A DNA stretch of 64,000 nt from Bacillota bacterium (GTDB taxonomy: Bacteria; Bacillota; DULZ01). The notes below the pieces were generated by a model. It searched no databases, was not told the origin of the DNA, and worked only from the letters and a program-made list of their open reading frames with translations. A program made the position numbers and the translations under genes. Below are positions 3,000 through 19,343 of this stretch, piece by piece. Location of the stretch: assembly GCA_050951405.1 (NCBI GenBank), contig JBMNIZ010000008.1, forward strand, positions 5,986 through 69,985, written 5' to 3'. Each line of letters opens with the position of its first letter. Within the stretch, counting starts at the first letter, position 1.

Positions 3000-3019
3000 C
3001 AGCCTTTGGTTTTATTACC

Positions 3020-3253
3020 TTAAAAAGGCAACCGGTTTCCCTGATCCTCAACTAACCGATGATATAATTTTTCAATACCCAGCCGGGAAATCCTCCTCAA
3101 GCAGCTTGCCATTTTTGCTGTTATCCCCATGGTTTCCTCCTGTTTTTCCCCGGAAATAACAATACTCTCCTCCGGCGGCAACTTTTTAATTGTCCGCCCA
3201 AAGGAGAGTATTTTCTTCAGTGCAAATGAAATTTTTTTCTGGGCTTTTTCCAT
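3020..3253 (-). CDS. Hypothetical small protein (77 aa), directly abutting upstream flavoprotein gene
   Basis: ORF only; start adjacent to stop of 3254..4093 suggests coupling; no recognisable motif. Confidence 0.25.
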   Translation of the reverse strand: MEKAQKKISFALKKILSFGRTIKKLPPEESIVISGEKQEETMGITAKMASCLRRISRLGIEKLYHRLVEDQGNRLPF

Positions 3254-4093
3254 TTAGTATTCATTGGGAAGCTCTTTCAGCTGGGCCAGGGTAAAAACCG
3301 GCCCATCAAGGCAGACATAGCGGCTCCCCAAGTTACAGCGGCCGCACTTGCCGATACCGCATTTCATCCGCATTTCCAGGGTAGTGACGATTTGTTCCGG
3401 TTGAAAACCCATCTTATCCAGGGATTGGAGCACAAATTTGATCATAATGGGAGGACCGCAGGTTAAAGCGATGGTATTGACCGGGCTGGGATTAAGTTTT
3501 TCCAAAAAAGCCGGCACAAAACCCACATGTCCCTGCCAGTTTTCGTCTCCTGCATCCACGGTCACACTCACCTGGGTATCCTTCACCTTAGGCCAGTTCT
3601 CAAAAAGGTCTTCTTTGAAGCAGAGATCCGCAGGAGAACGGGCCCCGTAAACAATATGCAGCTTGCCGAAATCCTCCCGGTGCTCCACACAATAGTTGAT
3701 CAGAGAACGTACCGGGGCCAATCCGATACCGCCGCCGATAAAGAGAACGTCTTTTCCTTGAAAAAGATCCAGGGGAAAACAATTACCGTAAGGCCCCCGG
3801 ATGCCCACTTCCTGGCCGACTACCGCTTCATGGAGGGCTTCCGTTAAAGTGCCGACCTTTTTGATGGCAAATTCCAGGTGATTTTCGCCCTGGGAAGTAA
3901 CGGAAAACATGGCTTCCCCTACCGGCAGCAAAGAGAGCATGCCCAGCTGTCCCGGCATGGGATGAAAGGGCTTACCCTCATCGGTAGTAATATGAAAGGT
4001 CTTTACATCGGGAGTTTCCTCCACAATTTTGACAATCTTTCCGATCTTCGGCAGTAAGGGATTAGCAGAAGCTTGACCATTTGCCTTAGTCAT
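3254..4093 (-). CDS. FAD/NAD(P)-binding ferredoxin-reductase-type oxidoreductase with C-terminal 2Fe-2S (AsrB / sulfhydrogenase gamma / FloxA-like)
   Basis: 279 aa; GGGIGLAP nucleotide-binding motif; C-terminal CGIGKCGRC cluster motif; overlaps next gene by 8 nt. Confidence 0.7.
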   Translation of the reverse strand: MTKANGQASANPLLPKIGKIVKIVEETPDVKTFHITTDEGKPFHPMPGQLGMLSLLPVGEAMFSVTSQGENHLEFAIKKVGTLTEALHEAVVGQEVGIRGPYGNCFPLDLFQGKDVLFIGGGIGLAPVRSLINYCVEHREDFGKLHIVYGARSPADLCFKEDLFENWPKVKDTQVSVTVDAGDENWQGHVGFVPAFLEKLNPSPVNTIALTCGPPIMIKFVLQSLDKMGFQPEQIVTTLEMRMKCGIGKCGRCNLGSRYVCLDGPVFTLAQLKELPNEY

Positions 4094-5096
4094 GGATGGG
4101 CACCTCCCTTAACTGATTGATCACCCTGGTGATATCAAGGGTAACCGGGCACTTCACCAGGCAACGCCCGCATCCTACACAACCCCACTTCTCATACCTT
4201 TCCGGCATATACTGAAGTTTATGCAGGAAACGCTGGCGGACCCTTTCTTTCTTAGTGGGTCTGGGATTGTGCCCCCCGGCCATTAAAGTATATTCCTTGT
4301 ACATACAGGAGTCATAGCAGCGATACTTTACTCCCTTTTCGCCCCTGTTCCTGTTTAGAATATCAAAACAGTGACAGGTGGGGCAAAGATAAGTGCAAGT
4401 GCCGCAGTTGATGCATTTACGGCAAATCTCCTCCCAAACGGGGTGCTCAAACATTTTCTGCAGCTTTTCCGTTAAACCTTCAACTTCCACCTGCAAGGAG
4501 CATTCTTTCCCTTCAGGGAATTCCTGGGAAGTATCTGCCAGAAGCGATTGAGTAGCCTGGAGCAGCTTTTCCCCTTTTTCGCTCTGGGCTGAGAGAAGAA
4601 AAGCGTCGCCAGTATCAGCCATCATGATATCGGCCTGGGGCGCCCGGCCGGGATCGATTCCCCAAGAACTGCAGAAACAGCTGGGCTCCGGCTGCAGGCA
4701 GCCTAGAGATACCAAAACCGTTTCTTCCCGCTTTTTCTTGTAATAGATATCTTCAAAACCTTTGGCGAGAAAAACGTCATCCAACAATTCTATGGCTTTT
4801 ACGTCACAGGGTCTGATGCCCACAACCACCGTTGGGCCGCCGACACCATCCAGCTCCTGGACAGCAGCCTGAAGCTTCTTGGTTTCATATGCATAAAGCT
4901 CCTCTGTTTGAGGGAAAAATATTTTTTTAGGAGAAATAATAGTATTTTTATCCAGCGCCGGTTCCGTTCCTTCTTCCCAGACGGCAAACTGGGTCAGCCC
5001 ATCATTGTCAACAGGAACATAAACTGTTGCCTGCTTCTTCAGCTCCGCCAAAAATCTCGGCAAATCCTTCTTTTGCAGTTTTTTCATTGATTTCAC
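4086..5096 (-). CDS. Iron-sulfur protein with two 4Fe-4S ferredoxin motifs (AsrA / sulfhydrogenase beta / FloxB-like)
   Basis: 336 aa; CINCGTCTYLCPTCHC and CVGCGRCLVKCP motifs. Confidence 0.65.
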   Translation of the reverse strand: MKSMKKLQKKDLPRFLAELKKQATVYVPVDNDGLTQFAVWEEGTEPALDKNTIISPKKIFFPQTEELYAYETKKLQAAVQELDGVGGPTVVVGIRPCDVKAIELLDDVFLAKGFEDIYYKKKREETVLVSLGCLQPEPSCFCSSWGIDPGRAPQADIMMADTGDAFLLSAQSEKGEKLLQATQSLLADTSQEFPEGKECSLQVEVEGLTEKLQKMFEHPVWEEICRKCINCGTCTYLCPTCHCFDILNRNRGEKGVKYRCYDSCMYKEYTLMAGGHNPRPTKKERVRQRFLHKLQYMPERYEKWGCVGCGRCLVKCPVTLDITRVINQLREVPIHD

Positions 5097-5109
5097 CGCC
5101 TCCTCGACC

Positions 5110-5997
5110 TTACATGAATTCTTCCGGATCTTCGGTTTTATACAGGCCCAGAGGAGGAGTTACCTCCAAATCGAGACCGGCTTCGTACTCGCCAAACAAC
5201 TCGTTGATATCCTTGGCAATCTTGCGGTTTAACAACATGATGGGAATACCGGCTGGACAGACCCTTTCGCACTCGCCGCACTCAGTACATCTTCCCGCCA
5301 CATGAAAGGCCCGGACCAGTCCATAAAACTCATTGCCCCCTCGGTCAACGCTTCTTTCCAGCCAATCCTGACCCTGATCGAAGATACACTCCCGGCAGTT
5401 ACAGGCGGGGCACACATTGCGGCAGGCATAACAGCGAAGACAGCGATCATAATGAGAGGACCAAAACTCATAGCGGCTGTCAGGATCCATTTTTTCGATT
5501 TCCTCTACCCCGGCAAATCGATCCTTTTGTGGGGATGGCTGCACTTCCTCTCCCAACAGCACGTCGTAAATCACCGGATTGGGATGGGTGCAGTAAAGGC
5601 ACTTTTCCTCCAGAGGCAGGTCCTGAATTTTCTCCGGTCCGGCTTCTTTCGCCGCCTGAATACTCTTCATGCCCGGACAGGGAATACCGATCAAATAGAT
5701 TTTATCTCTATCCAGTTGTAAATCCTGCAGCAAACGGTTAACGCCCCGGGCATCACAACCCTTGACAAAAATAGCCGTTTTGCCTTCCTTCTGCCTATAC
5801 TCCATGAGATATTTGGCCAGATTAACCGCACAAAACTCATCCCAGATCAGACAGTCCGTATCTTCCGGTCGGGTAATGAAAACCGGCGTGGAATCATAGA
5901 AAAAAGTGCCCTTTTCCCAACCGATAATCAGATCCACTTCTTTCTTTTTAAGCAACTCTTTGGCCAGCTGCCGCATTTTTTCCGTCACTGACTTCAT
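5110..5997 (-). CDS. FrhB/FdhB-family (coenzyme F420 hydrogenase beta-like) iron-sulfur flavoprotein, FloxC-like
   Basis: 295 aa; CLRCYACRNVCPACNC and CTECGECERVCP motifs; ATGA overlap with mvhD stop. Confidence 0.6.
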   Translation of the reverse strand: MKSVTEKMRQLAKELLKKKEVDLIIGWEKGTFFYDSTPVFITRPEDTDCLIWDEFCAVNLAKYLMEYRQKEGKTAIFVKGCDARGVNRLLQDLQLDRDKIYLIGIPCPGMKSIQAAKEAGPEKIQDLPLEEKCLYCTHPNPVIYDVLLGEEVQPSPQKDRFAGVEEIEKMDPDSRYEFWSSHYDRCLRCYACRNVCPACNCRECIFDQGQDWLERSVDRGGNEFYGLVRAFHVAGRCTECGECERVCPAGIPIMLLNRKIAKDINELFGEYEAGLDLEVTPPLGLYKTEDPEEFM

Positions 5998-6431
5998 TTG
6001 GCATCCCTCAACTTCCTATTGGGTCCCAGAGGCCGGATGCGCTCCGACAAATCCGCGATTACCTGAGCGAATTTCGGTCCCTCTGATCCTGAAACCCAAC
6101 GCACTTCAAATCTTTCAGGATCCAGACCCGTGTACTCCAGCATCCGTTGCATAATCAGATAACGGCGCCGGGTGAAATAATTGCCACTACCATAGTGGCA
6201 GTCACCGGGGTGTCAGCCGGCCACTAAAACTGCATCGGCCCCCCGTTTAAAGGCCCGGAGAACAAATTGGGGATTAACCCGGCCCGAACAGGGGACGCGG
6301 ATGACGCGAACATGAGGAGGATATTGGAGACGATTCAGCCCAGCCAGGTCAGCACCCGCATAAGCGCACCAGTGACAGCAAAAGGCTATTATTTTCGGCT
6401 CCCAATTGGCTCCGTGATTTTCTAGAGACAT
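5994..6431 (-). CDS. mvhD: MvhD-like hydrogenase/heterodisulfide-reductase iron-sulfur subunit, predicted selenoprotein (in-frame TGA at 6213..6215)
   Basis: ORF track stops at TGA after ...AVLVAG. Reading through gives [20 protein letters not shown]..., matching the MvhD GCHPGDCHY motif with Sec in place of the first Cys. The frame then stays open to a TGA at 5994 (ATGA overlap with next gene). Likely start is [22 protein letters not shown] at 6431. Confidence 0.7.
6183..6215 (-). other. UGA-Sec recoding site with candidate SECIS hairpin 13 nt downstream (mRNA GCCACUA-UGG-UAGUGGC)
   Basis: Perfect 7-bp stem and 3-nt loop at the spacing typical of bacterial SECIS elements; palindrome gccactaccatagtggc on + strand 6183..6199. 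Confidence 0.55.
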
Positions 6432-8416
6432 AAAGCTTCCACCTCCGCTAAGATTTGCTGATCGGTAAAGCCTTTGACAGTGATCGCCCCGGACCGGCAG
6501 GCCACATTGCAGGCACCACAACCCTGGCAAAGACCCTTATTGACCGCAGCCACCATTCTTTCCTGCATCTTGCCTGCTACCCTTTCCTGCAAGGGAACCA
6601 GCTCAATGGCTTTGTAAGGGCAGACTCCCACGCAAATGCCGCAGCCGGCACAGATGGCGTTATCAACAGTGGCCACCATGGGGTCGGTGGGCATTTCCGT
6701 TTTGGAAAAGAGGCTGGTCACTTTTACAGCAGCAGCGCTGGCCTGGCTGACCGTATCGGGAATATCCTTCGGCCCCTGACAGGCCCCGGCCAAGAAGACC
6801 CCCGCCGTAAAGGTTTCCACCGGCCTGAGCTTGGGATGGGCTTCCTGGAACCAGCCGTCTTTATCCGTGGAGATGCTGGCCAGCTTGGCCACCTTCTCGA
6901 AACCGGCGGCCGGCACCATGGCAGTAGCCAAAACCACCAGGTCCGCCTCCACTTCCACCGGGCGGCCCAGCAGTGTATCTTCACCTTTGACCACCAGTTT
7001 GCCCTCCCGGGGATAGATTTTGGAAACCCTGACCCCGTAAATACACAGCCCCTTCCTCCACCGTCCTTTCATAGAACTCGTCATAGGCCTTGCCCGGAGT
7101 CCGGACATCCATGTAGAAGACGAAGGCCTGACCGTCGGGAATCTTCTCCAGGACCTGATGGGCGTGTTTCGCCGTATACATGCAGCAGGCCCGGGAACAG
7201 TAGCTCTTCCCTTTGGTCAGATCTCTGGAACCGGCACACTTAATGAAAGACCACTGTTTTCGGTTCCTGCCCGTCGGAAGGACGAATAATCTTCCCTCCC
7301 GTCGGGCCGGACGCACTGGCCATTCTTTCAAACTGCATCCCGCTGATCACATCGGGATACCTGCCGTAACCATATTCACCGTACGCCTCTTCCCAGGCGA
7401 AGAGATCATAACCGGTGGCGACGATGATGGCGCCGAACTTCTCATCAATGATCTCGTCCTGCTGCTCGTAATCAACGGCCCCGGCCGGGCAGAATCTTCT
7501 GGCAGATACCACAACGCCCTCTGGTAAAGAGGCGGCAGTGTTCCTTGTCAATTACCGGCACATTGGGCACGGCCTGGGGAAATGGGAGTGTAAATGGCTT
7601 TCCGCTGGCCCAAACCGCATAGTCAAATTCGCTGGGTACTTTCGCTTGGGCATTTCTCCTGGCAAAGACCGCATCCGGTGCACCTGCTTTCGTCTACCAG
7701 ACGGGCTTTCTTCCTGAATCTTGACTTGGTAAGATTGCCCACATAGCCCCCGATTTCTTCCACTTCGGAGTAGGTTAAAGTTCTAATGTTAGGGTGCTGC
7801 GCCGCAGCAACCATTTTCGGCGTGCTAATTCAGGCGGAGCAGTCCAGGGTCGGGAAGGTCTTATCCAGCCTGACCATATTCCCGCCGATGGTGGGCTCCC
7901 TTTCCACCAGAACCACCTGGTAACCGGCATCAGCCACATCGATGGCCGCCTGCATCCCGGCAATACCGGCGCCGATCACCAAGCGCCCGCCTTTCCACCG
8001 GAATGGTGGTCAGCTCCAGGGGCTCATTTTTCGCCACCTTGGCCACAGCACTGCGCACCAGGTCGATGGCCTTGGCCGTGGCTTTTTCCTTATCTTTGTG
8101 TACCCAGGCACATTGCTCCCGGATATTGGCCATTTCCATGAGGAACTGGTTAATGCCGCCACTTTCACAAGCCTTCCGAAAAGTAGTCTCATGCAAGTCT
8201 CGGGGTGCAGGATGCCACCACCACCCGGTCCAGGTCATGCTCGGCGATGGCCTGTCTTGATCAAGTCCTGGCCCGGTTCCGAACACATATATTGATAATC
8301 GGTGGCAAAGGCCACATCAGGACATTTCCGCCGCTGTCAGCCGCTACTTTTTTCACATCCACCGTGGAGGCAATGTTGGTTCCACAATGACAAACAAAAA
8401 CTCCTACCCGTTTCAC
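6422..8416 (-). pseudogene. hdrA: hdrA (heterodisulfide reductase subunit A). It carries an in-frame TGA at the conserved Cys of the FPTxDCSxC motif (probable Sec) and at least six apparent frameshifts
   Basis: GTG start with AGGAGGG RBS. N-terminus VKRVGVFVCHCGTNIA. Fragments in three frames: [84 protein letters not shown]. Also [28 protein letters not shown]...YCSRACCMY and a C-terminal double ferredoxin. Overall span ~665 codons as expected for HdrA. Confidence 0.75.
7792..7832 (-). other. UGA-Sec codon of hdrA (7830..7832) plus a downstream hairpin with a bulged U (mRNA GGUUGCUGC-GGC-GCAGCACC)
   Basis: TGA aligns with the second Cys of the DCSMCI motif of HdrA. The hairpin lies 17 nt downstream, with an 8-bp stem, a bulged U and a G-rich apical loop, as in bacterial SECIS. 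Confidence 0.5.
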
Positions 8417-8443
8417 GCTTCTTCCCTCCTCGTTGCCGGATGT

Positions 8444-9315
8444 CTAAGCAAGTCCTTTTTCTCTAAAAGAGGCAGCCCGTTCACAAAATGTTTGGGCAGA
8501 CCCTAATTCTTTCGGGCCGTAGCCAAAAGCCAGCCCCATCAATTCCGTAAAGTAGAAGATGGGCAGATCGTACTTCTCCCTGGTAAGCTGCCCTCAGTCC
8601 CTTTCTGCCTCATGTCCAGGTTCATGAAGCACAAGGGGCAGGCCACCGCAATACAATCGGCTCCATTAGCCTTGGCATCAGCAAAAATGTTGCGCAGAAG
8701 AGGTCCCGCCTCCCTGGACAGAGTAGTGGTATGCCCGGCGCCACAACACTCTACCTTGAAGGACCAGTCCACGGGCGCGGCACCCAGCATCTCCATTAGT
8801 CGATCCATGCTCTGCGGGTTTTCCGCATCATCGAAACCCGTAGTTTCCACGGGACGGACCAGCAAACAACCATAATAGCAGGCAACTTTCAAACCTGTTA
8901 AAGGCCTGACCACTTTTTCCTGGATCTGTTCCTGATCCACCCGATTAGCCAGCAAATCCAGCAAGGATAAAGTCTGGTTGGATGCCTCATAATCCATTTC
9001 AATAATGCCCGCCACTTCTTCCTGGCACTCCTTGGAATTTCGTACCGCCAATTCCACTACCCGCATCCTGTTGTAACAGGCTGCACAGGGCACGGCCACA
9101 TCCAGACCTTCTTTTTCCGCCAGGGCCAGGTTTCGAGCCGGCAAAGCAAACCCCAATAACCGGTTGGTGGCATGGGCGGCAGAGGCCCCACAGCAATTCC
9201 AATCGGGTATTTCCCACAACTCCAATCCCAGGTGTTTCGCTACCAGTTTGGTGGAAAGATTGTACTCAACACCTGTAGCCTCAAGAGAACAACCGGGGTA
9301 ATAAGCATATTTCAA
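8444..9315 (-). CDS. hdrB: hdrB (heterodisulfide reductase subunit B, two CCG domains), one apparent frameshift near 8600
   Basis: NCCGASAAH and ECCGAGHTT CCG-domain motifs. The C-terminus continues in another frame as EKYDLPIFYFTELMGLAFGYGPKELG...REKGLA, ending at TAG 8444. Confidence 0.8.
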
Positions 9316-9884
9316 CGCTTTTCACCTCCCGCAGCGCGAACCCTTTCAAAAATACGTTTAACCGCCTTCTGTCCCCCGCTTCTCTTCGGCAGAGGATGAA
9401 CTTTGCCGTTCAGCAAAAGAGGCGGCCCCAAGAGCACATCTTTAAATAATTGCCCTGACTTTAAATTAAAAAAAGCAATCAGCAAAGCTTCCTGTACCCG
9501 CCCGAAATTTTCCACCAGACTTAAAAAGGTGTCGCTGAAGATATCTACGGTTTTTACAGGTACTTTGCCTCGCCTTTTCGCTTCCATCCGCAGGGTCTCC
9601 ATCAGCTTAGGAATATCAATTCCTTTTGGGCAGCGAGCATAACAAGTGGCACAGTGGGCACAAACCCAAATGGATTTCGCTCCCAGTGCCTTTTCTCCCA
9701 GCCCCAACTGCAGCATCCGAATCACCTGATGTGGCGTGTAGTCCATGGCTGCAGACAGAGGGCATCCGGCAGAACACTTGCCGCACTGATAGCAATCCTG
9801 GACATTGACCCCACTGTCTAAACGGACCAGCTCCTTGAAACTCCGGCCCGCAGTTAAAGTGGAAGCAAGTTCCAAGTTTTCCAT
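9312..9884 (-). CDS. hdrC: hdrC (heterodisulfide reductase subunit C, two 4Fe-4S motifs)
   Basis: 190 aa; CYQCGKCSAGCP and CAHCATCYARCP. Confidence 0.85.
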   Translation of the reverse strand: MENLELASTLTAGRSFKELVRLDSGVNVQDCYQCGKCSAGCPLSAAMDYTPHQVIRMLQLGLGEKALGAKSIWVCAHCATCYARCPKGIDIPKLMETLRMEAKRRGKVPVKTVDIFSDTFLSLVENFGRVQEALLIAFFNLKSGQLFKDVLLGPPLLLNGKVHPLPKRSGGQKAVKRIFERVRAAGGEKR

Positions 9885-10111
9885 ACAATCCCCCTCTTTA
9901 CAGCAAAATAAAAGCCATTTGTAAGAAAAAGCGCAAGCTCCTTAAAAAAAATGAAAAAGCCGCCCGGCAATTTTATATATTCGTTAACCTAAGCGAAATT
10001 CCTGCCCCGTCGCATCAAATTTCGCAAAAATACCGCATCTGGATACATCTTCCTTGCTTTCCTTACTTTCAGACAGATCGGGTATATCCGACTAACTCGA
10101 ATGAAGTATAT

Positions 10112-11182
10112 ATGAAAAGACAGATGCCTTTGTCTACAGGAACAAATTGCGGAAGGGGAACCATCGATGCTCTTTCCTTTCTTATCCGGTACCGGCGGAC
10201 TGATCCTTTTCTTTTGCCGGCATGCGCTGGATCAAAAAAGGACTGGACCAGGGCCGGCCGGAGGGGACTGGAAACCGCCATCAGCCTCTACTCACCGCCA
10301 CTCCCCTAGTGGCCACCCTGACCGGTACCGTCATCACCATGCTCTTCCAGAGCAGCAGCGCCGTCACCGTCCTCACCGTGGGTCTGGTCAACTCCGGCCT
10401 CATGACTTTTGTCCAGGGGCTGGGCATCGTCCTGGGCACCAACATCGGCACGACCTTTACCGTCCAGCTGCTGGCTTTTGAGTTCGACTCTCCTGGCACC
10501 CTGGCTGCTGGTGGGCGGGCTTCTGTTACGCAGCATGGTTTACACCGGAATGACCTCTGGCAGGGCAGTAGGGAGAAACCCTCTCCGGCCTGGGACTGGT
10601 CTTTTGCGGCCTCCACCTGTTTCGTCTCTCTTTTGCACCCTCTGCAAAGCCAGCCCTCTTTTCCTGGGCTGGCTCTCTTCTCTGGGAGACAACTACTCTA
10701 TGGCCCTGGTGACCGGCCTAATGGCCACTGCCCTGCTCCAGTCCAGCACCGCCGTCACCGCCGTCACCATCGTCCTGGGCAGCCAGGGGCACCTGACCAC
10801 TGGAGACCGCTATCGCCCTCATGCTGGGATCAAATATCGGCACCTGCTCCACGGCCCTTCTTGCTTCTTTTAACGCAGCTGCCTGGAGGCCCGCCGCATC
10901 GCCATGGCCCACGTAGTCCTCAACGTCCTGGGAGCCATCATCTTCTTTCCCCTGATCGATTTCTTTGCGGACTGCCTGCGATACCTTTCCCCTCTCCTGC
11001 CCCGCCAAATCGCCCACGGCCATACCCTGTTCAACCTGTCATTTCCTCTCTCCTGGTCCTACCCTTTCTTACCCTGCTTTCGCCCGCCTCATCATCTTTT
11101 TGGTACCGGACAAAAAATAATGGCTGCCGGAATGGCCAGCCCCGTCGTGAGTTATTTTCATAGTAGACCCCCATGCCGCTAG
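10112..11182 (+). pseudogene. Na+/phosphate cotransporter (NptA / Na_Pi_cotrans family), split across three frames
   Basis: Fragments MLFQSSSAVTVLTVGLVNSGLMTFVQGLGIVLGTNIGTTFTVQLLAFE, LLQSSTAVTAVTIVLGSQG and HVVLNVLGAIIFFPLIDFFADCL lie in different frames. The 313-aa ORF has a Pro/Arg-rich out-of-frame tail. Confidence 0.55.
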
Positions 11183-11446
11183 CGCGGCACCAGCAGAGCA
11201 TGAAAAACATCCAGGGAGGGGTGGTTATTCCGGCGCAGAGCGACCTTGAGCCGAGCGGCTAACCAAGGTTAGCGAGGCCGAGGGCGGAGGCGGGCCCGAG
11301 GACAGGACGTCCGAGGCCGACCATTGAGGCAAGGATGCCGAATTGGTCGGGAAGCCCGCCGGAGCCAGAGGAAGAGCGCTACCTTGGTCCGCGAGGATCA
11401 CCGGGAGCGGCTGCCGGAATGACCAGCCCCGTCACGAGTTATTTTC
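11117..11446. repeat. Two ~40-bp direct repeats (11117-11158 and 11407-11446, 37/40 identical: GGCTGCCGGAATGRCCAGCCCCGTCRTGAGTTATTTTCA) bracketing a ~250-bp GC-rich segment
   Basis: Direct repeat read from the sequence; the intervening DNA is >65% GC with repeated CCGAGG/GAGGC motifs and small hairpins (GCTAACC-aagg-TTAGC). Confidence 0.6.
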
Positions 11447-11502
11447 AAAGCAGTAACATTTCCTGCAGTCCCATTACGCACAATTTAACCAAAACAGCCA
11501 CT

Positions 11503-12216
11503 TTAAAAAACCACCCGCTGATTGTGCGTATATACATTTAACCGGCCTCCCCGAACGGAACCAACCAGGGTCACTCCCAATTCTTCACCAAGCTGGACAG
11601 ACAAATCGCTGGGGGCGGAGCGGGAAGCCAGGACCGGCACTCCCAACTTGGCCGCCTTGACCATGATTTCCGAAGTACAGCCTGCCGGTGGTTAAGAGCA
11701 GCTTATCCGCCAGAGATATGCCGTCCAGAAAACACCGGCCCAGGATCTTATCGGCAGCATTGTGCCTGCCCACATCTTCCCGGAGAAACAAGATTCTTCT
11801 CGCTGGTGCCAAGAGCGGCGCTGTGGGAGCCCCGGGTCCGCCGGTAAAGTTCACCCATTCTCTGCATTTCTTTCATCAAAGCCAAGATTTCTTTCCCTTT
11901 AACCAGAAGAGAAGAAGTTACGGGCCGGCAGTGGGAAGAATCCGCATAATGTAAAAAGAAGTCCCTTTGCCGCAGCCGGTGGTAATATATCTTTTCAGAA
12001 AGGTCCGCCGAGCCAACAGGGAAGTATGATCCGACTGCACCCAGGCCAATCCCTTCTCCCTGTCCAGCTGCACTCGCCGCAAATGGCCCGATCAGCCAAA
12101 AAACCCTCCGCCACCAAAAAACCTACTGCCAGCTCTTCCTGATCCTGGGGAGTGCATAGAAGAGTGACAATTTCTTCTTCGTTAAAATAAATGGTCAGAG
12201 GTCTTTCGGCGATCAC
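11503..12216 (-). pseudogene. fdhD: fdhD (formate dehydrogenase accessory sulfurtransferase), frameshifted into at least three frames
   Basis: Fragments LTIYFNEEEIVTLLCTPQDQEELAVGFLVAEG, EDVGRHNAADKILG and SEIMVKAAKLGVPVLASRSAP...LGVTLVGSVRGGRLNVYTHN. No formate dehydrogenase catalytic gene nearby. Confidence 0.65.
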
Positions 12217-12394
12217 CTCTCCTGCCAGGGTTTCTTTTTTCTGTGGTTTTTTATTCCCATGGTATCGTAGATAACCTTTTCTGTAAGGCTGGACATCTGT
12301 TCCACCTCAAATAAAAATCCTTTATGGCTTTTCTTTCTATTCTAACTTAAAACAAAACAAAAAGACAAATTCATTCCAGTTTATTTAACGAAAA

Positions 12395-12604
12395 ATGCGC
12401 ACAATAAAAAAGCGGCAGCTTGCTAAGGAGGTTCAATCTTTGGCCAAATTAATGTCCGAAGAACTGCGCTGGGAGTTAGCCAAGGAATTAGGCGTGGACC
12501 ACATCGTGGCCACAGAGGGCTGGGGAGGAGTTCCTTCCCGGGAATGTGGAAATCTGGTGCGCAAAGCTATTGAACTAGCGGAGCGAAGCCTGGTGCAACG
12601 ATAG
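12395..12604 (+). CDS. Small acid-soluble spore protein, alpha/beta-type-like (divergent); start may be the TTG at 12431 behind an AAGGAGG RBS
   Basis: 69 aa; EELRWELAKELGV...PSRECGNLVRKAIELAE resembles the SASP core (EIAxEFGV...TSRANGSVGGEITKRLV); followed by a strong terminator. Confidence 0.45.
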   Translation: MRTIKKRQLAKEVQSLAKLMSEELRWELAKELGVDHIVATEGWGGVPSRECGNLVRKAIELAERSLVQR

Positions 12605-12606
12605 CT

Positions 12607-12640
12607 GCCGAAAAAAGGCCGCTTTCCGGCGGCCTTTTCC
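12607..12640. terminator. Bidirectional rho-independent terminator (AAAAAAGGCCGC-tttccg-GCGGCCTTTTCC) shared by the SASP gene (+) and the MCP / fla-che operon end (-)
   Basis: GC-rich 8-bp stem flanked by A-run and T-run. Confidence 0.7.
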
Positions 12641-12679
12641 CATTATTTTCCTTCTGGCGATAGTCTAAAAAAATCTTCT

Positions 12680-14005
12680 TTAATTTTCTGTCTGCATATG
12701 TTTGACCATATCCATTAAATCCTTGGAAAGATTGGACAGCCTGTTGACATATTCCGGTGCTCCAGATAGTTGGCGGCTATTTCCTCCACGGAAGCTGCCA
12801 GCTCCTGGGTGCTTCCTCCGGTTTGGGCGGCAATGTTTTCGATCTGCGCCATATGCTGAGCCACCTGGCGCCGCCGGCCGCCATTTGCTGGGTAGCATAA
12901 GAGACTTGTTGAATTTCCCGGCCACATCCTCAACGGATTTGATTATAGTTTCAAAAGCTCGCCCCGCCTCGGTCACCACTTGGATACCGCCGGCCGCTTC
13001 CTGGGTCCCCTGTTCCATGGATTCCACCGCTTTTTTCGTATCCTGTTGGATCTGCTGGATCATTTCCGCAATCTGCCCAGCCGCCGCTCCGGCCTGCTCA
13101 GCCAATTTTCTCACCTCTTCCGCCACCACGGCAAATCCCCGTCCTTGCTCTCCCGCCCTGGCGGCTTCAATGGCTGCATTCAAAGCCAGCAGATTGGTCT
13201 GCTCAGCAATGCTGGTGATGGTCTCCACGATTTGTCCAATTTCTATGGATCTTTCACCCAAAAGCCCCACCGTTTGAGAAGAACTGTGGACTGCCTTGCT
13301 GATCACCTTCATCTGCTCAATGGACTTGCTGATGGTCACCCCTCCCTGGGAAGCGATCTCCGCCGTCTCCCGCGAAAGATCGGATACGGCACGGGCGTTG
13401 GCCGCTATCTGCTGGATATCTTCAGACATGCGGCTGATAGTGGCAGAAATATCCTCGATACTGCCGGTCTGGTTTTCCATGCCCAGGGCTACCTGCTGAA
13501 TGGTCTGAGCGATTTGCTCAGTAGACTGGGATGATTGCTCCACATCAGCCTGCAAATTTCCGGCCATTTCCGCCACTTCCGCAGCCACCTCTCTGATTTT
13601 CAAAACAAAAGTCCTGAAGTTCTCCACCATCAAGTTAAAACCCCTGGCCAGGTCCAGCAGCTCATCATTGCTTTTACAGGCAGTTTGTACGGTCAAATCC
13701 CCTTTTTCCGCCCTTTTCATGGCCTTAACCACCTGTCCCACCGGGCCGAGAATGACTACGGACATAATGTAACCTACAAAAATAGAAAAAAGAGTGCCTC
13801 CCGTGCCGGCCACCAGAATATTTCTTTGAAAAATCCTGAAAGCCTGGTCAGCATTGCCGTGCCGGGCTGCCTCTTGCAAAAGAACGGCCACCGTGGGAAA
13901 AGTATAGCCGACGGTAGCTATCCAGATGACAACGGTCACTACTGAAAAGATGAGCACCATTTTCACTTTCAGGCTCAAGCGCATCTTTCCACCTCTTTTG
14001 TTCAT
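12680..14005 (-). CDS. Methyl-accepting chemotaxis protein; C-terminal signalling domain disrupted by apparent frameshifts
   Basis: N-terminal TM helices; highly conserved MCP core [35 protein letters not shown]. The C-terminal continuation ([29 protein letters not shown]) lies in another frame (12715..12933). Confidence 0.8.
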
Positions 14006-15075
14006 TTCTTCAGGTTGGTGATCCTTTCCACCGGACTTTCAATACTGGTAATCTTCACCCCAAAATTTTCACTGATCACCACCACTTCTCCTCTAGCGAT
14101 GGGAGTGCCGTTGACTAGAATATCCACCGGCTCCTCCGCCAGTTTCTCCAGCTCCACAATACTGCCGGGGGTAAAGTTCAGCACTTCTTTAATGGGCTTC
14201 TTTGTTTTGCCCAGGACAACCGACACTTTTAGTGGCACATCCAGGATCAAATCCAGATTCCGGGGTTTAATTCCTTCCGGCAATTCGGGCAATTCTTCTG
14301 CTGCCGGGGACAGCCCGGAATCAGGCCTGGTCTCAACCCCGGGGGAAAGCTCCTCGTTGGAAGCCGGTGCCGCCGACTGCTGGGGGACAGGCTCCTCTTC
14401 AATATTGTTCGTACCCAAAAGAAGGCCTGCTTCCTTTTTGGCCACCTCGATGGGAAGTACCTGCATAATTGAGCTGTCAAGCATAGTGCCTATTTCCATT
14501 TTAAAAGATACCACCACCAAGGCATTATCCACAGTCCAAGGGAAATCCATCTCTCCCTGAACATTGACTGCTTGAATTTTCGGGGTGGAAATCATCACTT
14601 TCGTATTAAACAGGCTGGACATGGAAGTAGCGGCAGAACCCATCATCTGGTTCATGGCTTCCGCCACGGCGCTGGAGTGCAGCTCGGTAATCTCCGCCGG
14701 TAAATTGGTGCCATCACCCCCCATCATCAAATCGGCAATGATCATGGCATCAGACACTTTCAGCACCAACAAGTTACTTCCCTGTAACCCCTCAATAAAG
14801 CCCACTTCAATGATCATCAGGGGCACTTTAAAACTGTCAATCAGCTCCTGGGGGGTCATAATCCGAACCCAGGGCGTGGTAATGCTCACCCTTTGATTTA
14901 AAAGCTGAGAAAGAGCAGTGGCAGCACTGCCCATAGAGATATTGCCTATTTCCCCGAGGGCGTCCTTTTCCATTTCATTCAGGTTAGCTGATGCCCCTCC
15001 GTCCGGTGCCAAATCGCCTCCATCCTGCCCTACCAAAAGAGCATCGATTTCTTCTTGTGACAAAAACCCGCTCAA
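14002..15075 (-). CDS. fliY: Flagellar motor switch phosphatase FliY (CheC-like N-terminal domains + FliN/SpoA C-terminal domain)
   Basis: 357 aa; C-terminus [46 protein letters not shown]. Confidence 0.9.
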
Positions 15076-16085
15076 CTCTCCCCACCTCTTTCCAGCATAC
15101 CGGTTACCTGTACAGCCAGTTTTTCCTGATAAATTCCCGGCTGCACCCGAAATTTAGGTTTATCTTCCACTGCCAGGATCATATCCTGTCCGATTTTGCT
15201 ATCCAGGGCGACTATATCTCCCACCTGGAGCCCCAAAAATTCCCTGATGGTTAACTCAGTCTCTCCTCCCAAGGCTGTCAGGGTTACCGGAGTTCTACCC
15301 AAAGCCTCCTCCACCAATTTATGGTAGTTTTCATAAGTGTCCTGAGTGGAGGAGAACCAATGACGAGCAGAGAGTTTGGAAATCACCGGTCCCAAAGTCA
15401 AAAAAGGCAAGCAGATGTTCATCATCCCTTGATGCCCGTTAATGTCGGTAGAAAAAGTAACTACGGCTACTATTTCATTGGGTGAAATAAGCCGATTCAG
15501 CTGGGGATTGGTTTCTATCCCCTGGATAGTTGTGGAAATCTGGTAAACATCACTCCAAACGTAATTCAGATTCTCCAACAGTCTCCCATATAAATGTTTC
15601 AGCACATTGGCCTCAATATCCGTTAATTCCCGCACCTTCTCCGGCATGGTGCCGGGCCCCCCGAAAAGTAGGTCGATCAAGGGAAAAACAAAATTGGCGT
15701 TGGTTTCCAGGACCGCCGAACCGGAGAGGGGCTCCATACTAAAAATGGCCATCAAGGTAGGGGTAGGAATGGATACGATAAAATCCTCAAAGGTCAATTG
15801 ATCCACGGAAAGAATCTTGATCTGAACATTGGTCCGCAAATAAACCGAAAGAGAATTGGCCACCAGCCGGGCGAAGTTTTCATGCATCAGGTAAATAGTC
15901 CGCATCTGATCCTTGGAAAACTTATTCGGCCGGCGAAAATCGTAAACCTTGGTTTTAACCTGTTCTGCCTCTCGGCGCATCTCCTCCGTATTCAGCTGCC
16001 CGGAAGTCAAAGCCTTTAAAAGCATATCAATTTCTGATTGAGACAATACTTCTTCCGCCACGAAGTCACCATCCTTCCCCGCCAT
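15072..16085 (-). CDS. fliM: Flagellar motor switch protein FliM
   Basis: 337 aa; N-terminal EVLSQSEIDMLLKAL CheY-binding motif. Confidence 0.9.
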   Translation of the reverse strand: MAGKDGDFVAEEVLSQSEIDMLLKALTSGQLNTEEMRREAEQVKTKVYDFRRPNKFSKDQMRTIYLMHENFARLVANSLSVYLRTNVQIKILSVDQLTFEDFIVSIPTPTLMAIFSMEPLSGSAVLETNANFVFPLIDLLFGGPGTMPEKVRELTDIEANVLKHLYGRLLENLNYVWSDVYQISTTIQGIETNPQLNRLISPNEIVAVVTFSTDINGHQGMMNICLPFLTLGPVISKLSARHWFSSTQDTYENYHKLVEEALGRTPVTLTALGGETELTIREFLGLQVGDIVALDSKIGQDMILAVEDKPKFRVQPGIYQEKLAVQVTGMLERGGES

Positions 16086-16104
16086 CCCAAAGCCTTTAGA
16101 CTAA

Positions 16105-16467
16105 TCAAGACAGGGCCTTTTCCACCGCTTGAATAACCCTTTCCTGCTGAAAAGGCTTGACAATAAAATCCCTGGCTCCCGCCTGAATGGCCTCCATCAC
16201 CATCATCTGCTGTCCCATGGCACTGCACATGATAATTTTGGCTTCCGGATCAATCTGGCGGATAGCCTTTACTGCCGAAATTCCGTCCATTTCCGGCATG
16301 GTAATATCCATGGTGACCAAATCAGGCTTTAACTCTTTATACAAGTTCACAGCCACCGTGCCGTTTTCCGCCTCTCCAGCCACCTCAAAGCCATGTTTGG
16401 TGAGAATATCACGGATCATCATGCGCATGAACGCAGCATCATCCACAATCAAAATCCTTTTTCCCAT
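16105..16467 (-). CDS. cheY: Chemotaxis response regulator CheY
   Basis: 120 aa single receiver domain; ILIVDDAAFMR...DITMPEMDG...KP. Confidence 0.9.
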   Translation of the reverse strand: MGKRILIVDDAAFMRMMIRDILTKHGFEVAGEAENGTVAVNLYKELKPDLVTMDITMPEMDGISAVKAIRQIDPEAKIIMCSAMGQQMMVMEAIQAGARDFIVKPFQQERVIQAVEKALS

Positions 16468-16481
16468 CCCTGCTACCTCCT

Positions 16482-17099
16482 CTATACATTTAATCCCAGT
16501 GCCTGAAAAATTTTATCCAGGGAACCTACCTCGGGCACCAGAAAAAAATGCCCATTGATGCTTACATCCTCCTCATAAAACTCCGTTTCAATGATCAAGG
16601 CCCGATCTTCGAAATATCCCCTTTCGAAAAAGGCTGTGCTCAAAACGGCCCCCAACATATCAAAGGCAAAAGCAGGCACTGAAGGTATAAAATTGATTTG
16701 AGTAAACTCAGAAAAAGCGGTCAAAAAGGAGCCGGTTAAGATATTGCCCACTTCTTTCAGGGTGGATTCTCCGATAGGATCCAGGGTCCCTTGGGACTCG
16801 CCCTCCCCACCCAAAAGCATCTGCAAGAGGCGAAAAGCGCTTTCTTCATCAACGATGAAGAGAATCACGCTGGGAGCCTCTCCGCTGACATGAAAATTAA
16901 CGCAGGCCACCCTGTCTTCTTCCTGTCCCACCAGCTGAAAAATCTCCTGAAAGTGAAGGATGCCCGCTTTGGGAATGGACATCCCCACTTTTTTGTTAAT
17001 CAATGAGGCTAAAGAGGTGGCCGCATTGCCTGCTCCAATATTACCGATTTCCTTTAACACATCCAATTGAAAACCTGTCAAATTATCCCAGCTGCTCAT
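16482..17099 (-). CDS. cheC: CheY-P phosphatase CheC
   Basis: 205 aa; DVLKEIGNIGAGNAATSLASL and TLKEVGNILTGSFLTAF duplicated CheC motifs. Confidence 0.85.
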   Translation of the reverse strand: MSSWDNLTGFQLDVLKEIGNIGAGNAATSLASLINKKVGMSIPKAGILHFQEIFQLVGQEEDRVACVNFHVSGEAPSVILFIVDEESAFRLLQMLLGGEGESQGTLDPIGESTLKEVGNILTGSFLTAFSEFTQINFIPSVPAFAFDMLGAVLSTAFFERGYFEDRALIIETEFYEEDVSINGHFFLVPEVGSLDKIFQALGLNV

Positions 17100-17150
17100 G
17101 GCACCGCTCCTTCAGGGAAGTTTTTTATCTGTCAGCTCTTTGCCTCCCGC

Positions 17151-17930
17151 TCACTTTTTCGTATCGGCGCGCCGATAAAACCAGGGGGAGATTTTTTCGT
17201 AGCCCAAGTCACGGTAACGCAACATATTCTCGGTGGCCCCGATAAACAGCACTCCTCCCGGGTTCAAAGCTTCGAAAAACTTCCGATACAAAAGATTCTG
17301 CGCCTCCATGGTGAAATAAATGGTCACATTGCGACAGACAATCAGATCATAATTTCTCCCGTACGGATCCTGCAGCAGATCATGGTATCGAAATACAACC
17401 CGGTCTCTAATCTGAGGATTGATGACATAGCCCTTACCCTCCGGCTGAAAAAATCTCTTCAGCCTGTCCCGGGATACATTTTTGAGAAACCTGGCTTCAT
17501 AATATCCCCTCCGAGCCTCTTGGAGTATCTTCCGGTCGATGTCAGTGGCTTCGATAACATGTTTCATCCCCGGGCCCAGTTCTTCTAAAATAATGGCCAG
17601 GGAATAAGGCTCCGCTCCGTTGGCACAGGCAGCGCTCCACACTTTAAGGCGCGGCTTGTCCCGGAGCAAAACCGGTAGAATCTCCGTTTCCAGAATTTCG
17701 AAAATCTCCGGATTACGAAAAAACTCGGAAACGTTGATGGTAACTTTATCCAGAAAGCGCGCCAGTTCCTCTTCATTCTCCACCAGCAGGCGCAGATACC
17801 GGCCGTAATCCTGGCACTGCCGGCCTTGCATCAAGCTATCTATTCGACGTTTCAGCTGTTTCTCCTTGTAACCTTCCAGATTTAAGCCAAATTGCCTGTA
17901 AACCCCTTTCTTAAACTCCAAAAAATCCAT
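17151..17930 (-). CDS. cheR: Chemotaxis protein methyltransferase CheR
   Basis: 259 aa; SAM-MTase motif VWSAACANGAEPYSLAI. Confidence 0.9.
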   Translation of the reverse strand: MDFLEFKKGVYRQFGLNLEGYKEKQLKRRIDSLMQGRQCQDYGRYLRLLVENEEELARFLDKVTINVSEFFRNPEIFEILETEILPVLLRDKPRLKVWSAACANGAEPYSLAIILEELGPGMKHVIEATDIDRKILQEARRGYYEARFLKNVSRDRLKRFFQPEGKGYVINPQIRDRVVFRYHDLLQDPYGRNYDLIVCRNVTIYFTMEAQNLLYRKFFEALNPGGVLFIGATENMLRYRDLGYEKISPWFYRRADTKK

Positions 17931-17943
17931 AAGCCCTCCGGTT

Positions 17944-18447
17944 CTAGATGGTAATCAACGGTCTCGCTATGCTTCTTATGTATACATCACCGCTTGACAG
18001 ATCAAAAATCATGGTGCGCCCGTAGTTTCTACCGGTATGCCGGCCTTTGAGAGGAATATTTAAAGACCGCAGTACCTGGATGGTCATTTCCACATTTCGC
18101 TGGCCGATATTGAGAGTGCTGATGCTCTTGTCGGGAAAACTGAACATCTGGGCTCCTCCGGCGATCTTGGCGGTGATGGCGTTTCTTCGGGCGCCCCGCC
18201 GCAGCATTTCTGCCAACATATCCGGTATAGCCAAATCCGCATATTTAGCCGGCTTGGATTTGTCGGAAAACTGCCTGCTGTCGGGGAGCATGATATGAGC
18301 CAGGCCCCCTATTTTTTCATAGGGATCCCACAAAGCTATTCCCACACAGGAACCCAATCCCAGGGTAATCATGCGCATCGGTTCCCTGGCCACCTTCCAA
18401 TCGGCAATACCCACCTTGATCTCCTCGATAGTCTTATCAGCTGACAT
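17944..18447 (-). CDS. cheD: Chemoreceptor glutamine deamidase CheD (start taken at internal ATG, MSADKTIEEIKVG)
   Basis: ITLGLGSCVGIALWDPYEKIGGLAHIMLP CheD signature. Confidence 0.85.
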   Translation of the reverse strand: MSADKTIEEIKVGIADWKVAREPMRMITLGLGSCVGIALWDPYEKIGGLAHIMLPDSRQFSDKSKPAKYADLAIPDMLAEMLRRGARRNAITAKIAGGAQMFSFPDKSISTLNIGQRNVEMTIQVLRSLNIPLKGRHTGRNYGRTMIFDLSSGDVYIRSIARPLITI

Positions 18448-19329: not shown

Positions 19330-19343
19330 TTTTCCTCACCTCC

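What the first reader, a model, noticed from the sequence alone, without database searches (positions are those of the whole stretch)
6400..14010. About 7.6 kb block with a strikingly high density of frameshifts, while ~30 kb of adjacent flagellar genes are intact
hdrA needs at least six frame changes, three of them within 200 nt near its N-terminus. hdrB needs one. The NptA-like transporter is spread over three frames, fdhD over three, and the MCP C-terminus over at least two. Protein motifs are otherwise superbly conserved and there are no internal stops apart from the shifts. That pattern fits homopolymer-type indel errors in a low-coverage patch better than old pseudogenes. However, the clustering is non-random: only the fliA C-terminus, the IS transposase and the IPT poly-C junction show shifts elsewhere. 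Either outcome matters: local assembly quality, or a block of recently inactivated energy-metabolism genes including two selenoproteins.
Basis: seen in the sequence. Interest (0 to 1): 0.55.

Follow-up and report, generated by a model that had tools for sequence, protein, structure and literature searches.

The report
Chimeric two-haplotype consensus, not pseudogenes
The cluster of frameshifts is real in this sequence, but it is an assembly artefact: in two ~2-kb stretches the contig is a base-by-base merge of two related bacterial lineages, and the same genes are intact in seven independent assemblies of the same organism.

Summary
There are 48 indel events in window 6773-12917, against 2 in about 51 kb of comparable flank. 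The interpretation needs changing.

The window comes from a 129.7-kb MAG contig (Bacillota). Seven independent assemblies of the same population (H1) match it 100% outside the block. They carry intact hdrA (Sec), hdrB, Na/Pi transporter, fdhD and MCP genes.

Inside the block there are two sharply bounded patches, 6773-8799 and 10004-11853. They carry 248 mostly synonymous substitutions and 41 indel events, 39 of them insertions and none homopolymer-type.

Nearly every deviant base is the allele of a second public lineage about 12% divergent (H3: GCA_012841435.1; also LSQX01).
- At each H1/H3 mismatch the window carries the higher-ranked base, C>G>A>T on the + strand. There are no violations at 146 sites where H1 ranks higher.
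- Bases always beat gaps.
- The frameshifts sit where both alleles were kept.
- A simulated "union" of H1 and H3 reproduces the 2,131-nt patch 1 with 16-17 edits, against 125 to H1.

A third zone, 11952-12917, has seven homopolymer deletions only.

Verdict: computational chimera plus low-depth errors. These are not pseudogenes, and the feature is not biologically novel.

The parts
5988..6425 (-). mvhD/FlpD-like gene with an in-frame Sec codon (TGA at 6213-6215). It lies outside the damaged patches and is identical to H1.
   Evidence: Pfam PF02662 on the H1 orthologue. The TGA is conserved in H1 and H3, and H3 is annotated as 145 aa with read-through. There are no differences to L007/L008 here. 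A hairpin lies downstream of the UGA; this is only suggestive.
6422..8416 (-). hdrA (660 codons in H1, Sec TGA at 7830-7832), broken by 13 insertion events totalling 15 nt.
   Evidence: The H1 orthologue is intact apart from the Sec codon. Pfam FAD and 4Fe-4S domains.
6773..8799 (.). Patch 1: a column-wise merge of haplotype H1 with an H3-like haplotype. It carries 109 substitutions and 16 insertions. Its edges are sharp: the left edge lies between 6707 and 6773, the right edge between 8799 and 8836.
   Evidence: 105 of 109 substitutions equal the H3 allele and only 3 are private. Base ranking is G>C>T>A in the gene orientation, with 0 of 146 violations. A simulated union consensus lies 16-17 edits from the window, against 125 to H1 and 158 to H3. 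Edges.
8413..9315 (-). hdrB. Only its 3' end (8504, 8576, 8587) is hit, by three 1-nt insertions. NCBI calls a truncated 258-aa product.
   Evidence: The WIN-specific residues equal those of H3 HdrB (HHX51400.1).
9312..9884 (-). hdrC: intact and identical to H1. It lies in the clean interval 8800-10003 between the two patches.
   Evidence: At 0 of 68 sites where H3 has the higher-ranked base does the window take it.
10004..11853 (.). Patch 2: a merge of H1 with an H2/H3-like haplotype. It covers the intergenic region, the Na/Pi transporter, the 313-nt insertion and the 3' half of fdhD. It carries 139 substitutions and about 25 indel events.
   Evidence: Three-way alignments with LSQX01144019.1 and DUUQ01000120.1. 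The best of 24 rankings is C>G>A>T on the + strand, the complement of the patch 1 ranking. 8 of 12 insertions are exact junctions of one haplotype with the other, with homologous bases duplicated.
10168..11121 (+). Na/Pi cotransporter gene (309 aa in H1), broken by 14 insertion events (24 nt).
11122..11434 (.). 313-nt GC-rich segment flanked by ~39-nt direct repeats. It is absent from H1 and DUUQ01000120, and its first ~205 nt (as far as that contig reaches) are present in LSQX01144019. It was carried into the contig because bases win over gaps.
   Evidence: Strong predicted fold, z = -3.97.
11503..12296 (-). fdhD (264 aa in H1). Two merge-type insertions (11678, 11795) and three homopolymer deletions (11952, 12087, 12241).
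11952..12917 (.). Zone 3: seven single-base homopolymer contractions (11952, 12087, 12241, 12396, 12747, 12873, 12917) with no substitutions. This is a classical low-depth long-read error pattern.
   Evidence: The window equals H1 at all 287 H1/H3 differences in this zone.
12680..14005 (-). MCP gene (442 aa in H1). Three 1-nt deletions sum to -3, so an ORF of 441 aa stays open with a scrambled segment between 12747 and 12917.

Best explanation
The block is a computational chimera. The organism's real sequence here is haplotype H1, with every gene intact.

In two stretches of about 2 kb, the consensus step that built this 129.7-kb MAG contig combined two equally weighted sequences. One was H1. 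The other was a haplotype about 12% divergent (ALT), close to GCA_012841435.1 and the LSQX01 lineage. The merge followed three rules:
- Where the two disagreed, the output took one base by a fixed order: C>G>A>T on the window + strand.
- Where the pairwise alignment put a gap in either sequence, the base was kept.
- Mismatches aligned as staggered gaps therefore left both alleles in the output.

The result is longer than either parent and is frameshifted at the points where it switches between haplotypes. It is also GC-enriched (0.56 against 0.51 and 0.50).

An adjoining 1-kb stretch (11952-12917) has only homopolymer contractions, as expected from one or very few long reads.

Shown: the genes are intact elsewhere; the deviant alleles come from H3/H2; the ranking rule holds; a simulation reproduces the patch.

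Inferred: the depth was exactly two sequences or two equal weights, and which software or data type produced the tie-break. It is also inferred that ALT is either a co-resident recombinant strain or short contigs or reads of a sister species.
For: 1. Independent assemblies. Seven assemblies from JGI, ENA and Logan samples (L007-L013) differ from each other by 0-3 SNPs. They equal the window at every position of 288-6772 and 12918-20216, apart from three isolated SNPs (1243, 2741, 17454), and have all the genes intact.

2. The substitutions are real alleles, not read errors. In patch 1, 74 of 109 are synonymous against 30 +/- 4.5 expected. In patch 2, 57 of 93 against 24 +/- 4.2. The amino-acid changes are conservative.

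3. The alleles have a traceable source. In patch 1, 105 of 109 substitutions equal DUUQ01000386.1 and only 3 are private to the window. The window switches parent 105 times over 272 informative sites.

4. The choice follows a rule. The window never takes the H3 base when H1's ranks higher (0 of 146). It takes the H3 base at 105 of 126 sites where H3's ranks higher. Outside the patches it takes it at 0 of 151 and 0 of 68 such sites.

5. The ranking includes C over G and A over T on the + strand and is the same in both patches. It therefore depends on strand and on how the sequence is represented.

6. Indel pattern. 39 of the 41 indel events in the patches are insertions; the two deletions (4 and 6 nt) lie in the poorly alignable intergenic stretch 11477-11501. 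Of 26 single-base insertions, 22 are non-homopolymer. Most are exact junctions of one parent with the other, with 1-2 homologous bases duplicated.

7. Simulation. H1 and H3 were aligned with cheap gaps, with base over gap and rank GCTA. The result is 2,130-2,134 nt long and 16-17 edits from the 2,131-nt window patch. Other rankings give 25 to 248 edits. For the Na/Pi gene the distance falls from 82 edits to 31.

8. The 313-nt "insertion" matches another lineage's sequence over the ~205 nt that its contig (L014) covers.

9. Published background: long-read metagenome assemblers are known to collapse related strains into a single consensus (PMC8302730).
Against: - No reads or depth data are available, so the claim of two equal inputs is inferred from the tie-like behaviour.
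- I cannot name a program that uses this base order.
- In patch 2 the simulation leaves 31 edits per 0.9 kb, because neither public relative is the exact second parent.
- The seven homopolymer deletions next to patch 2 are not produced by the union rule. They need a second cause (low depth).
- A sister contig from another JGI sample (L006) has a different kind of damaged patch at the same locus. The locus may therefore be genuinely polymorphic, so some biology (strain variation) probably underlies the artefact.
Confidence: 0.9

Rival explanations
1. Plain long-read indel noise (homopolymer-type) in a low-coverage stretch.
For: Seven events at 11952-12917 are 1-nt homopolymer contractions with no substitutions. 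The contig and its sister contig L006 carry sporadic single-base indels elsewhere, at 20996 and 55265 in the window and at 13110, 17455, 21309 and 21854 in L006. Residual homopolymer indels are the known failure mode of nanopore assemblies (PMC9262707).
Against: - 41 of the 48 events are not of this type. 39 of them are insertions and most are non-homopolymer.
- They co-occur with 248 substitutions that are 2.4-fold enriched for synonymous changes.
- Those substitutions equal the alleles of another lineage.
- Random read error cannot produce H3's alleles or a fixed base hierarchy.
Confidence: 0.06
2. Genuine, recently inactivated genes: a real strain whose hdrA, hdrB, Na/Pi transporter, fdhD and MCP genes decayed after importing divergent DNA.
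For: - The deviant alleles are real natural alleles.
- Related lineages are natural mosaics at this locus. LSQX01086254 is H1-identical over 8150-9500 but diverges elsewhere.
- L006 also has a divergent, broken hdrA region.
Against: - About 40 insertions against two intergenic deletions, and only 3 private substitutions in 2 kb. This is the opposite of neutral decay, where substitutions outnumber indels and bacterial indels are mostly deletions (the latter from general knowledge).
- 105 parent switches in 2 kb.
- A deterministic, strand-specific base hierarchy.
- Inserted bases duplicate the other parent's allele.
- Seven other assemblies are intact.
Confidence: 0.02
3. A real recombinant molecule shaped by heteroduplex formation between H1 and H3-like DNA, followed by extremely GC-biased short-patch mismatch repair.
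For: The fine-scale mosaic prefers the G/C allele at 226 of 245 S/W sites in patch 1. The patch borders are sharp and the patches are tract-like at about 2 kb.
Against: - The bias is absolute rather than statistical (0 of 146).
- The hierarchy also orders C over G and A over T in a strand-specific way. GC-biased repair would not impose that order (inference from general knowledge).
- Repair does not duplicate both alleles side by side.
Confidence: 0.01

Closest known systems
Strain-collapsed (strain-oblivious) consensus in long-read or merged metagenome assemblies
   Same: Two related haplotypes are represented by one contig. The flanks are perfect and the variable segment is a blend. The resulting gene calls are fragmented. 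Flye is documented to collapse strains into consensus contigs (PMC8302730).
   Different: The blended haplotypes are about 12% divergent, far more than typical conspecific strains. The blend is limited to two ~2-kb tracts. It follows a deterministic base order (C>G>A>T) and a base-over-gap rule, which points to exact ties between two inputs rather than majority voting over many reads.
Residual homopolymer indels of nanopore or low-pass long-read assemblies
   Same: Seven 1-nt homopolymer contractions at 11952-12917, plus isolated ones at 20996 and 55265. They cause frameshifts in otherwise perfect genes.
   Different: This explains only 7 of the 48 events in the block. The other 41 lie in the patches: 39 are insertions, most are non-homopolymer, and they are tied to allele switches.
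HdrABC-MvhD/FlpD heterodisulfide-reductase-type gene cluster with selenocysteine-containing HdrA and MvhD
   Same: The underlying genes are ordinary members. Pfam hits are CCG (HdrB), 4Fe-4S (HdrC, HdrA), FAD-binding (HdrA) and FlpD. In-frame TGA codons lie in the FPTLDCSAU and VAGUHPGDCHY motifs and are conserved in H1 and H3.
   Different: Nothing unusual once the artefact is removed. Function was not tested.

Membership tests
Chimeric / collapsed-haplotype consensus artefact | The same locus is intact and invariant in independent assemblies of the same population. | tested here: met
   L007-L013 differ by 0-3 SNPs from each other, and all genes are full length.
Chimeric / collapsed-haplotype consensus artefact | Deviant bases are traceable to a second existing haplotype, with almost no private changes. 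| tested here: met
   Patch 1: 105 of 109 substitutions equal DUUQ01000386.1, with 3 private. Patch 2: alleles come from LSQX01144019 and DUUQ01000120.
Chimeric / collapsed-haplotype consensus artefact | Indels sit at switches between haplotypes and retain both alleles. | tested here: met
   8 of 12 events in patch 2 and 12 of 16 in patch 1 are exact prefix/suffix junctions with duplicated homologous bases (11 of the 16 join H1 to H3). The rest lie in complex variable contexts.
Chimeric / collapsed-haplotype consensus artefact | A simple merge rule applied to the two parents reproduces the sequence. | tested here: met
   The union consensus lies 16-17 edits from the 2,131-nt patch 1, and the same ranking is best of 24 in both patches.
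Chimeric / collapsed-haplotype consensus artefact | Reads fall into two in-frame classes, and no read carries the merged sequence. | not testable with these tools
   No read data are available.
Genuine pseudogene block | Disabling mutations are reproducible in independent samples of the lineage. | tested here: not met
   None of the 48 events occurs in L007-L013.
Genuine pseudogene block | Relaxed selection: substitutions spread evenly over codon positions, indels mixed or mainly deletions. | tested here: not met
   Codon position 3 carries 74 of 109 and 53 of 93 substitutions. 39 insertion events against 2 deletions in the dense patches, both deletions in the intergenic stretch 11477-11501.
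Homopolymer-type long-read indel error | Indels lie in homopolymer runs and have no associated substitutions. | tested here: inconclusive
   Met for the 7 events at 11952-12917. Not met for the 41 events in the patches.
Selenoprotein HdrA / MvhD | An in-frame TGA at the conserved Cys position, conserved across lineages. | tested here: met
   The TGA is present in the window, H1 and H3 at both sites. The downstream hairpins are only suggestive, with z = -0.04 and -1.24.

The most novel reading that the evidence does not exclude
The mosaic could be a physical DNA molecule. A heteroduplex between H1 and DNA from a relative about 12% divergent would have been resolved mismatch by mismatch, with an essentially absolute preference for G/C. 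That would be an extreme bacterial form of GC-biased gene conversion, and it would also disrupt the genes.

A milder and much more likely biological residue is this: the source community contains a recombinant strain with the H1 backbone and two ~2-kb tracts imported from an H3-like lineage. The assembler then blended that strain with H1.
Probability: 0.01. Interest if true: 0.8.

Novelty: not a real feature. Interest (0 to 1): 0.12.

Why it matters
The biology is ordinary. The organism almost certainly has a working hdrABC-mvhD cluster (with two selenoproteins), Na/Pi transporter, fdhD and MCP.

The practical value is quality control.
- A public MAG contig contains about 4 kb of sequence that exists in no organism. 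It is annotated with truncated or missing proteins; for example, HdrB is called at 258 aa instead of 299.
- Metabolic reconstructions or pseudogene counts based on this contig would wrongly score a loss of heterodisulfide-reductase-type energy metabolism.
- The artefact has a simple signature that can be searched for in other assemblies:
  - sharp-edged patches;
  - insertions only, no deletions;
  - a GC rise;
  - one-directional substitutions that follow a fixed base order.
- The artefact also shows that at least three lineages with mosaic relationships at this locus occur in these habitats.

Tried and rejected
- **Genome-contig scan with HdrC.** The best relative was 57% identical, so it gave no orthologous locus.
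- **Metagenome-contig scan with the corrected HdrA.** The best hit was 73%. That collection lacks the relevant samples, so the scan was wasted.
- **Rfam gathering scan of the window.** No hits.
- **L006 as donor of the window's alternative alleles in patch 1.** Rejected. At L006/H1 differences the window follows H1 in about 90% of cases. L006's own patch has a symmetric substitution spectrum and both insertions and deletions.
- **LSQX01086254 (L015) as donor for patch 1.** Rejected. It is nearly identical to H1 over 8150-8800, where the window deviates.
- **Random sequencing error as the source of the substitutions.** Rejected by the synonymous enrichment.
- **An ancestral-like third lineage as the explanation for the mosaic.** Rejected, for three reasons:
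  - only 3 private changes;
  - an absolute, strand-specific base hierarchy;
  - GC above both parents.
- **Exact-protein look-ups for window:55145-58858 and window:50282-52813.** Neither protein is on record.
- **Literature search for the sample and assembly identifiers.** Nothing found.


Full report
**What the sequence is.** Exact-sequence look-ups place the window on a 129,697-bp contig of an NCBI MAG labelled "Bacillota bacterium". HdrC, a truncated 258-aa HdrB and FlhA correspond to MGI6552492, MGI6552491 and MGI6552512.

The HdrC protein was used to fetch every contig that encodes it. This gave eight loci from JGI, ENA and Logan assemblies.
- In L007, L008, L009, L010 and L011 all genes of the block are full length, or run off the end of a short contig: MCP 442 aa, FdhD 264 aa, Na/Pi cotransporter 309 aa and HdrB 299 aa.
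- HdrA is split only at its selenocysteine codon (193 + 460 aa). FlpD/MvhD is called up to its own Sec codon.
- Pfam confirms the gene identities.

**Checking the observation.** A multiple alignment was made of the window (reverse strand, 1-20300) with these loci. The seven assemblies L007-L013, called H1 here, differ from each other by 0-3 SNPs. The window is identical to them outside three zones.

- **Patch 1 (6773-8799).** It covers most of hdrA and the 3' end of hdrB. It has 109 substitutions and 16 insertion events.
- **Patch 2 (10004-11853).** It covers the intergenic region, the Na/Pi transporter gene, a 313-nt insertion and the 3' half of fdhD. It has 139 substitutions and about 25 indel events.
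- **Zone 3 (11952-12917).** It has seven single-base deletions, all homopolymer contractions, and no substitutions.
- **Clean interval (8800-10003).** hdrC and the 5' two-thirds of hdrB lie here and are untouched.

Further look-ups covered 14.3-45.8 kb and 48.4-60.2 kb. They show only two other indels in the window: 20996 (fliA 3' end) and 55265 (a G/C run inside a 1,949-aa TIG-domain gene). The total is 48 events in 6.1 kb against 2 in 51 kb, P = 3e-44.

**The substitutions are not read errors.**
- They are strongly enriched for synonymous, third-position changes. Randomisations kept substitution type and reference base. Patch 1 has 74 of 109 synonymous against 30 +/- 4.5 expected; patch 2 has 57 of 93 against 24 +/- 4.2.
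- After removing the inserted columns, the encoded proteins differ from H1 only by conservative replacements.
- These are therefore alleles that have passed through selection in some real lineage.

**Where the alleles come from.**
- A protein search with the corrected Na/Pi transporter found H1 (92%) and one other close lineage, P0023 (84%). At most positions where the window differs from H1 it agrees with P0023.
- The P0023 contig is LSQX01144019.1 (L014). It also contains the first ~205 nt of the 313-nt "insertion", up to where that contig ends.
- For patch 1, the HdrB cluster members showed that the window's seven or eight private residues are those of HHX51400.1.
- The contigs of that MAG (GCA_012841435.1) are DUUQ01000386.1 (L096) and DUUQ01000120.1 (L105), fetched. 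This lineage, H3, is about 12% divergent from H1 across the whole locus.
- In patch 1, 105 of 109 window substitutions equal the H3 base and only 3 are private. Outside the patches the window follows H1 at every H1/H3 difference.

**The merge rule.** Within patch 1 the window switches between H1 and H3 alleles 105 times over 272 informative sites. This is far too often for natural recombination. The choice is also not random.

| Mismatch class (hdr coding orientation) | Window base | Count | Exceptions |
|---|---|---|---|
| {A,G} | G | 80 | 6 |
| {C,T} | C | 104 | 8 |
| {A,C} | C | 24 | 3 |
| {G,T} | G | 18 | 2 |
| {C,G} | G | 15 | 2 |
| {A,T} | T | 10 | 0 |

- This gives the ranking G>C>T>A in the hdr coding orientation, which is C>G>A>T on the window + strand.
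- All 21 exceptions keep the H1 base. That is expected if the true second parent equals H1 at those sites.
- There is no case in 146 where a lower-ranked H3 base replaced a higher-ranked H1 base.
- Patch 2, analysed on the + strand with two imperfect stand-ins for the second parent, gives C>G>A>T as the best of all 24 rankings.
- The rule raises GC to 0.561, against 0.514 for H1 and 0.505 for H3.
- The patch borders are sharp. The window takes the H3 base at 0 of 151, 105 of 126 and 0 of 68 eligible sites in the left flank, patch 1 and the inter-patch interval respectively.

**How the frameshifts arise.**
- 39 of the 41 indel events in the two patches are insertions; the two deletions (4 and 6 nt) are in the poorly alignable intergenic stretch 11477-11501. 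Of 26 single-base insertions, 22 are not homopolymer extensions.
- Locally the window reads as a prefix of one parent joined to a suffix of the other, with one or two homologous positions present twice.
- Example at 8197: H1 has AGA-TTGCAT, H3 has AGACTT-CAT and the window has AGACTTGCAT.
- Example at 10141: H2 has ACAGG|CAAATT, H1 has ATGAA|CAAATT and the window has ACAGG+AA+CAAATT.
- This holds by strict matching for 8 of 12 events in patch 2 and 12 of 16 in patch 1, 11 of the latter joining H1 to H3.
- This is the expected result when two sequences are aligned with cheap gaps and every gap is filled with the base from the other sequence.
- I simulated it. H1 and H3 were aligned globally (match 3, mismatch -5, gap -4, or unit costs). 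Base was taken over gap, and the higher-ranked base was taken at mismatches.
- The product is 2,130-2,134 nt long and 16-17 edits from the window's 2,131-nt segment. The window is 125 edits from H1 and 158 from H3. Other rankings give 25-248 edits.
- For the Na/Pi gene the distance falls from 82 to 31 edits. The remainder reflects that neither public relative is the exact second parent.

**Interpretation.** The two patches are a computational union of two sequences, not a sequence that exists in a cell.
- Ties at every mismatch imply two equally weighted inputs. These could be one read or contig of each haplotype, or two equal read classes.
- The strand-specific order (C over G, A over T) points to a tie-break in software rather than to chemistry or repair.
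- Which program did this is unknown. An argmax over counts stored in the order A,T,C,G with "last wins" would give this ranking in the hdr orientation; that is my inference only.
- Zone 3, with homopolymer contractions only, fits very low long-read depth.
- Collapse of related strains into one consensus is a documented behaviour of long-read metagenome assemblers (PMC8302730).

**What biology remains.**
- The second parent is a real lineage. It is H3-like in 6773-8799 and indistinguishable from H1 in 8800-10003. It is H2/H3-like, with the 313-nt element, in 10004-11853.
- It may be a co-resident recombinant strain. Alternatively it may be two ~2-kb fragments of a sister species that were pulled into the consensus.
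- Natural mosaicism does exist here. LSQX01086254 is H1-identical over 8150-9500 but diverges at 9500-9700 and upstream of hdrC.
- A sister contig of almost the same length from another JGI sample (L006, 129,376 bp) has its own damaged patch, equivalent to window 5742-8546. That patch is about 19% divergent, has a symmetric spectrum and carries 17 insertion and 19 deletion events. It does not derive from H3.
- The hdrA-mvhD region is therefore repeatedly troublesome, which suggests real population heterogeneity at this locus. Reads would be needed to show it.

**Rivals.**
- Genuine pseudogenes are excluded for practical purposes. The evidence is the intact copies elsewhere, the near-total lack of deletions and private substitutions, and the deterministic mosaic.
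- Pure homopolymer noise explains only 7 of the 48 events.
- A real molecule made by GC-biased heteroduplex repair cannot explain the C>G and A>T ordering or the side-by-side retention of both alleles.

**Verdict.** The feature is not real biology and its interest is low, apart from its use as a quality-control signature for public MAGs.

Noticed in passing
window 11122-11434: A 313-nt GC-rich segment flanked by ~39-nt direct repeats (GGCTGCCGGAATGRCCAGCCCCGTCRYGAGTTATTTTCA; the repeat itself contains a terminator-like hairpin). It lies between the convergent Na/Pi and fdhD genes. It is absent from H1 and DUUQ01000120, which have one repeat copy. Its first ~205 nt are present in LSQX01144019, as far as that contig reaches. 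It is predicted to fold strongly (z = -3.97) and could be a small MITE-like insertion in the second lineage.
   Followed up: partly
window 46847-48449: The IS (DDE_Tnp_1) copy differs from the intact 505-aa copy on L106 by 89 substitutions and 10 indels. All 10 are insertions in the window, and the transposase is split into 180- and 168-aa ORFs. This looks like the same union-type artefact, here between diverged IS copies. The C-over-T bias is 29:6, but other mismatch classes are less clear in this two-way comparison.
   Followed up: partly
window 55265: One extra G in a G/C run splits a TIG/IPT-domain surface protein into ORFs 53008-55296 and 55145-58858. The protein is 1,949 aa and intact in L106 and L107. 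L108 lacks the same extra G and has a second 1-nt difference at 54128 that splits its own copy (1,615 + 350 aa). This could be read error or genuine tract-length variation.
   Followed up: partly
window 20996: A single-base deletion relative to L099 and L100 in the 3' end of fliA (235 aa against 237 aa). It is the only other indel found in 14.3-45.8 kb.
   Followed up: yes
L006 11450-14300 (equivalent to window 5742-8546): The sister 129,376-bp JGI contig has its own damaged patch over the start of the next gene, mvhD, hdrA and the end of hdrB. It is about 19% divergent, mostly synonymous (327 of 534), with a symmetric substitution spectrum and 17 insertion plus 19 deletion events. It is not derived from H3. 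The same contig also has isolated 1-nt indels that break its CheR, PilZ and FliA genes.
   Followed up: partly
L015 (LSQX01086254.1) against window 8150-10200: This lineage is identical or nearly identical to H1 over hdrB and most of hdrC. It diverges in 9500-9700 and upstream of hdrC, and its Na/Pi gene (L014) is about 17% divergent. This is evidence of natural recombination mosaics among the related lineages.
   Followed up: partly
window 7830-7832 and 6213-6215 (minus strand): In-frame TGA (Sec) codons in hdrA (FPTLDCSAU) and mvhD (VAGUHPGDCHY), conserved in H1 and H3. mvhD has a clear hairpin starting about 10 nt after the UGA. For hdrA the predicted fold is not better than shuffled sequence.
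   Followed up: partly
window 12680-14005: The three 1-nt deletions in the MCP gene sum to -3. A 441-aa ORF therefore survives and would pass automatic annotation, although about 57 codons (12747-12917) are read out of frame.
   Followed up: yes
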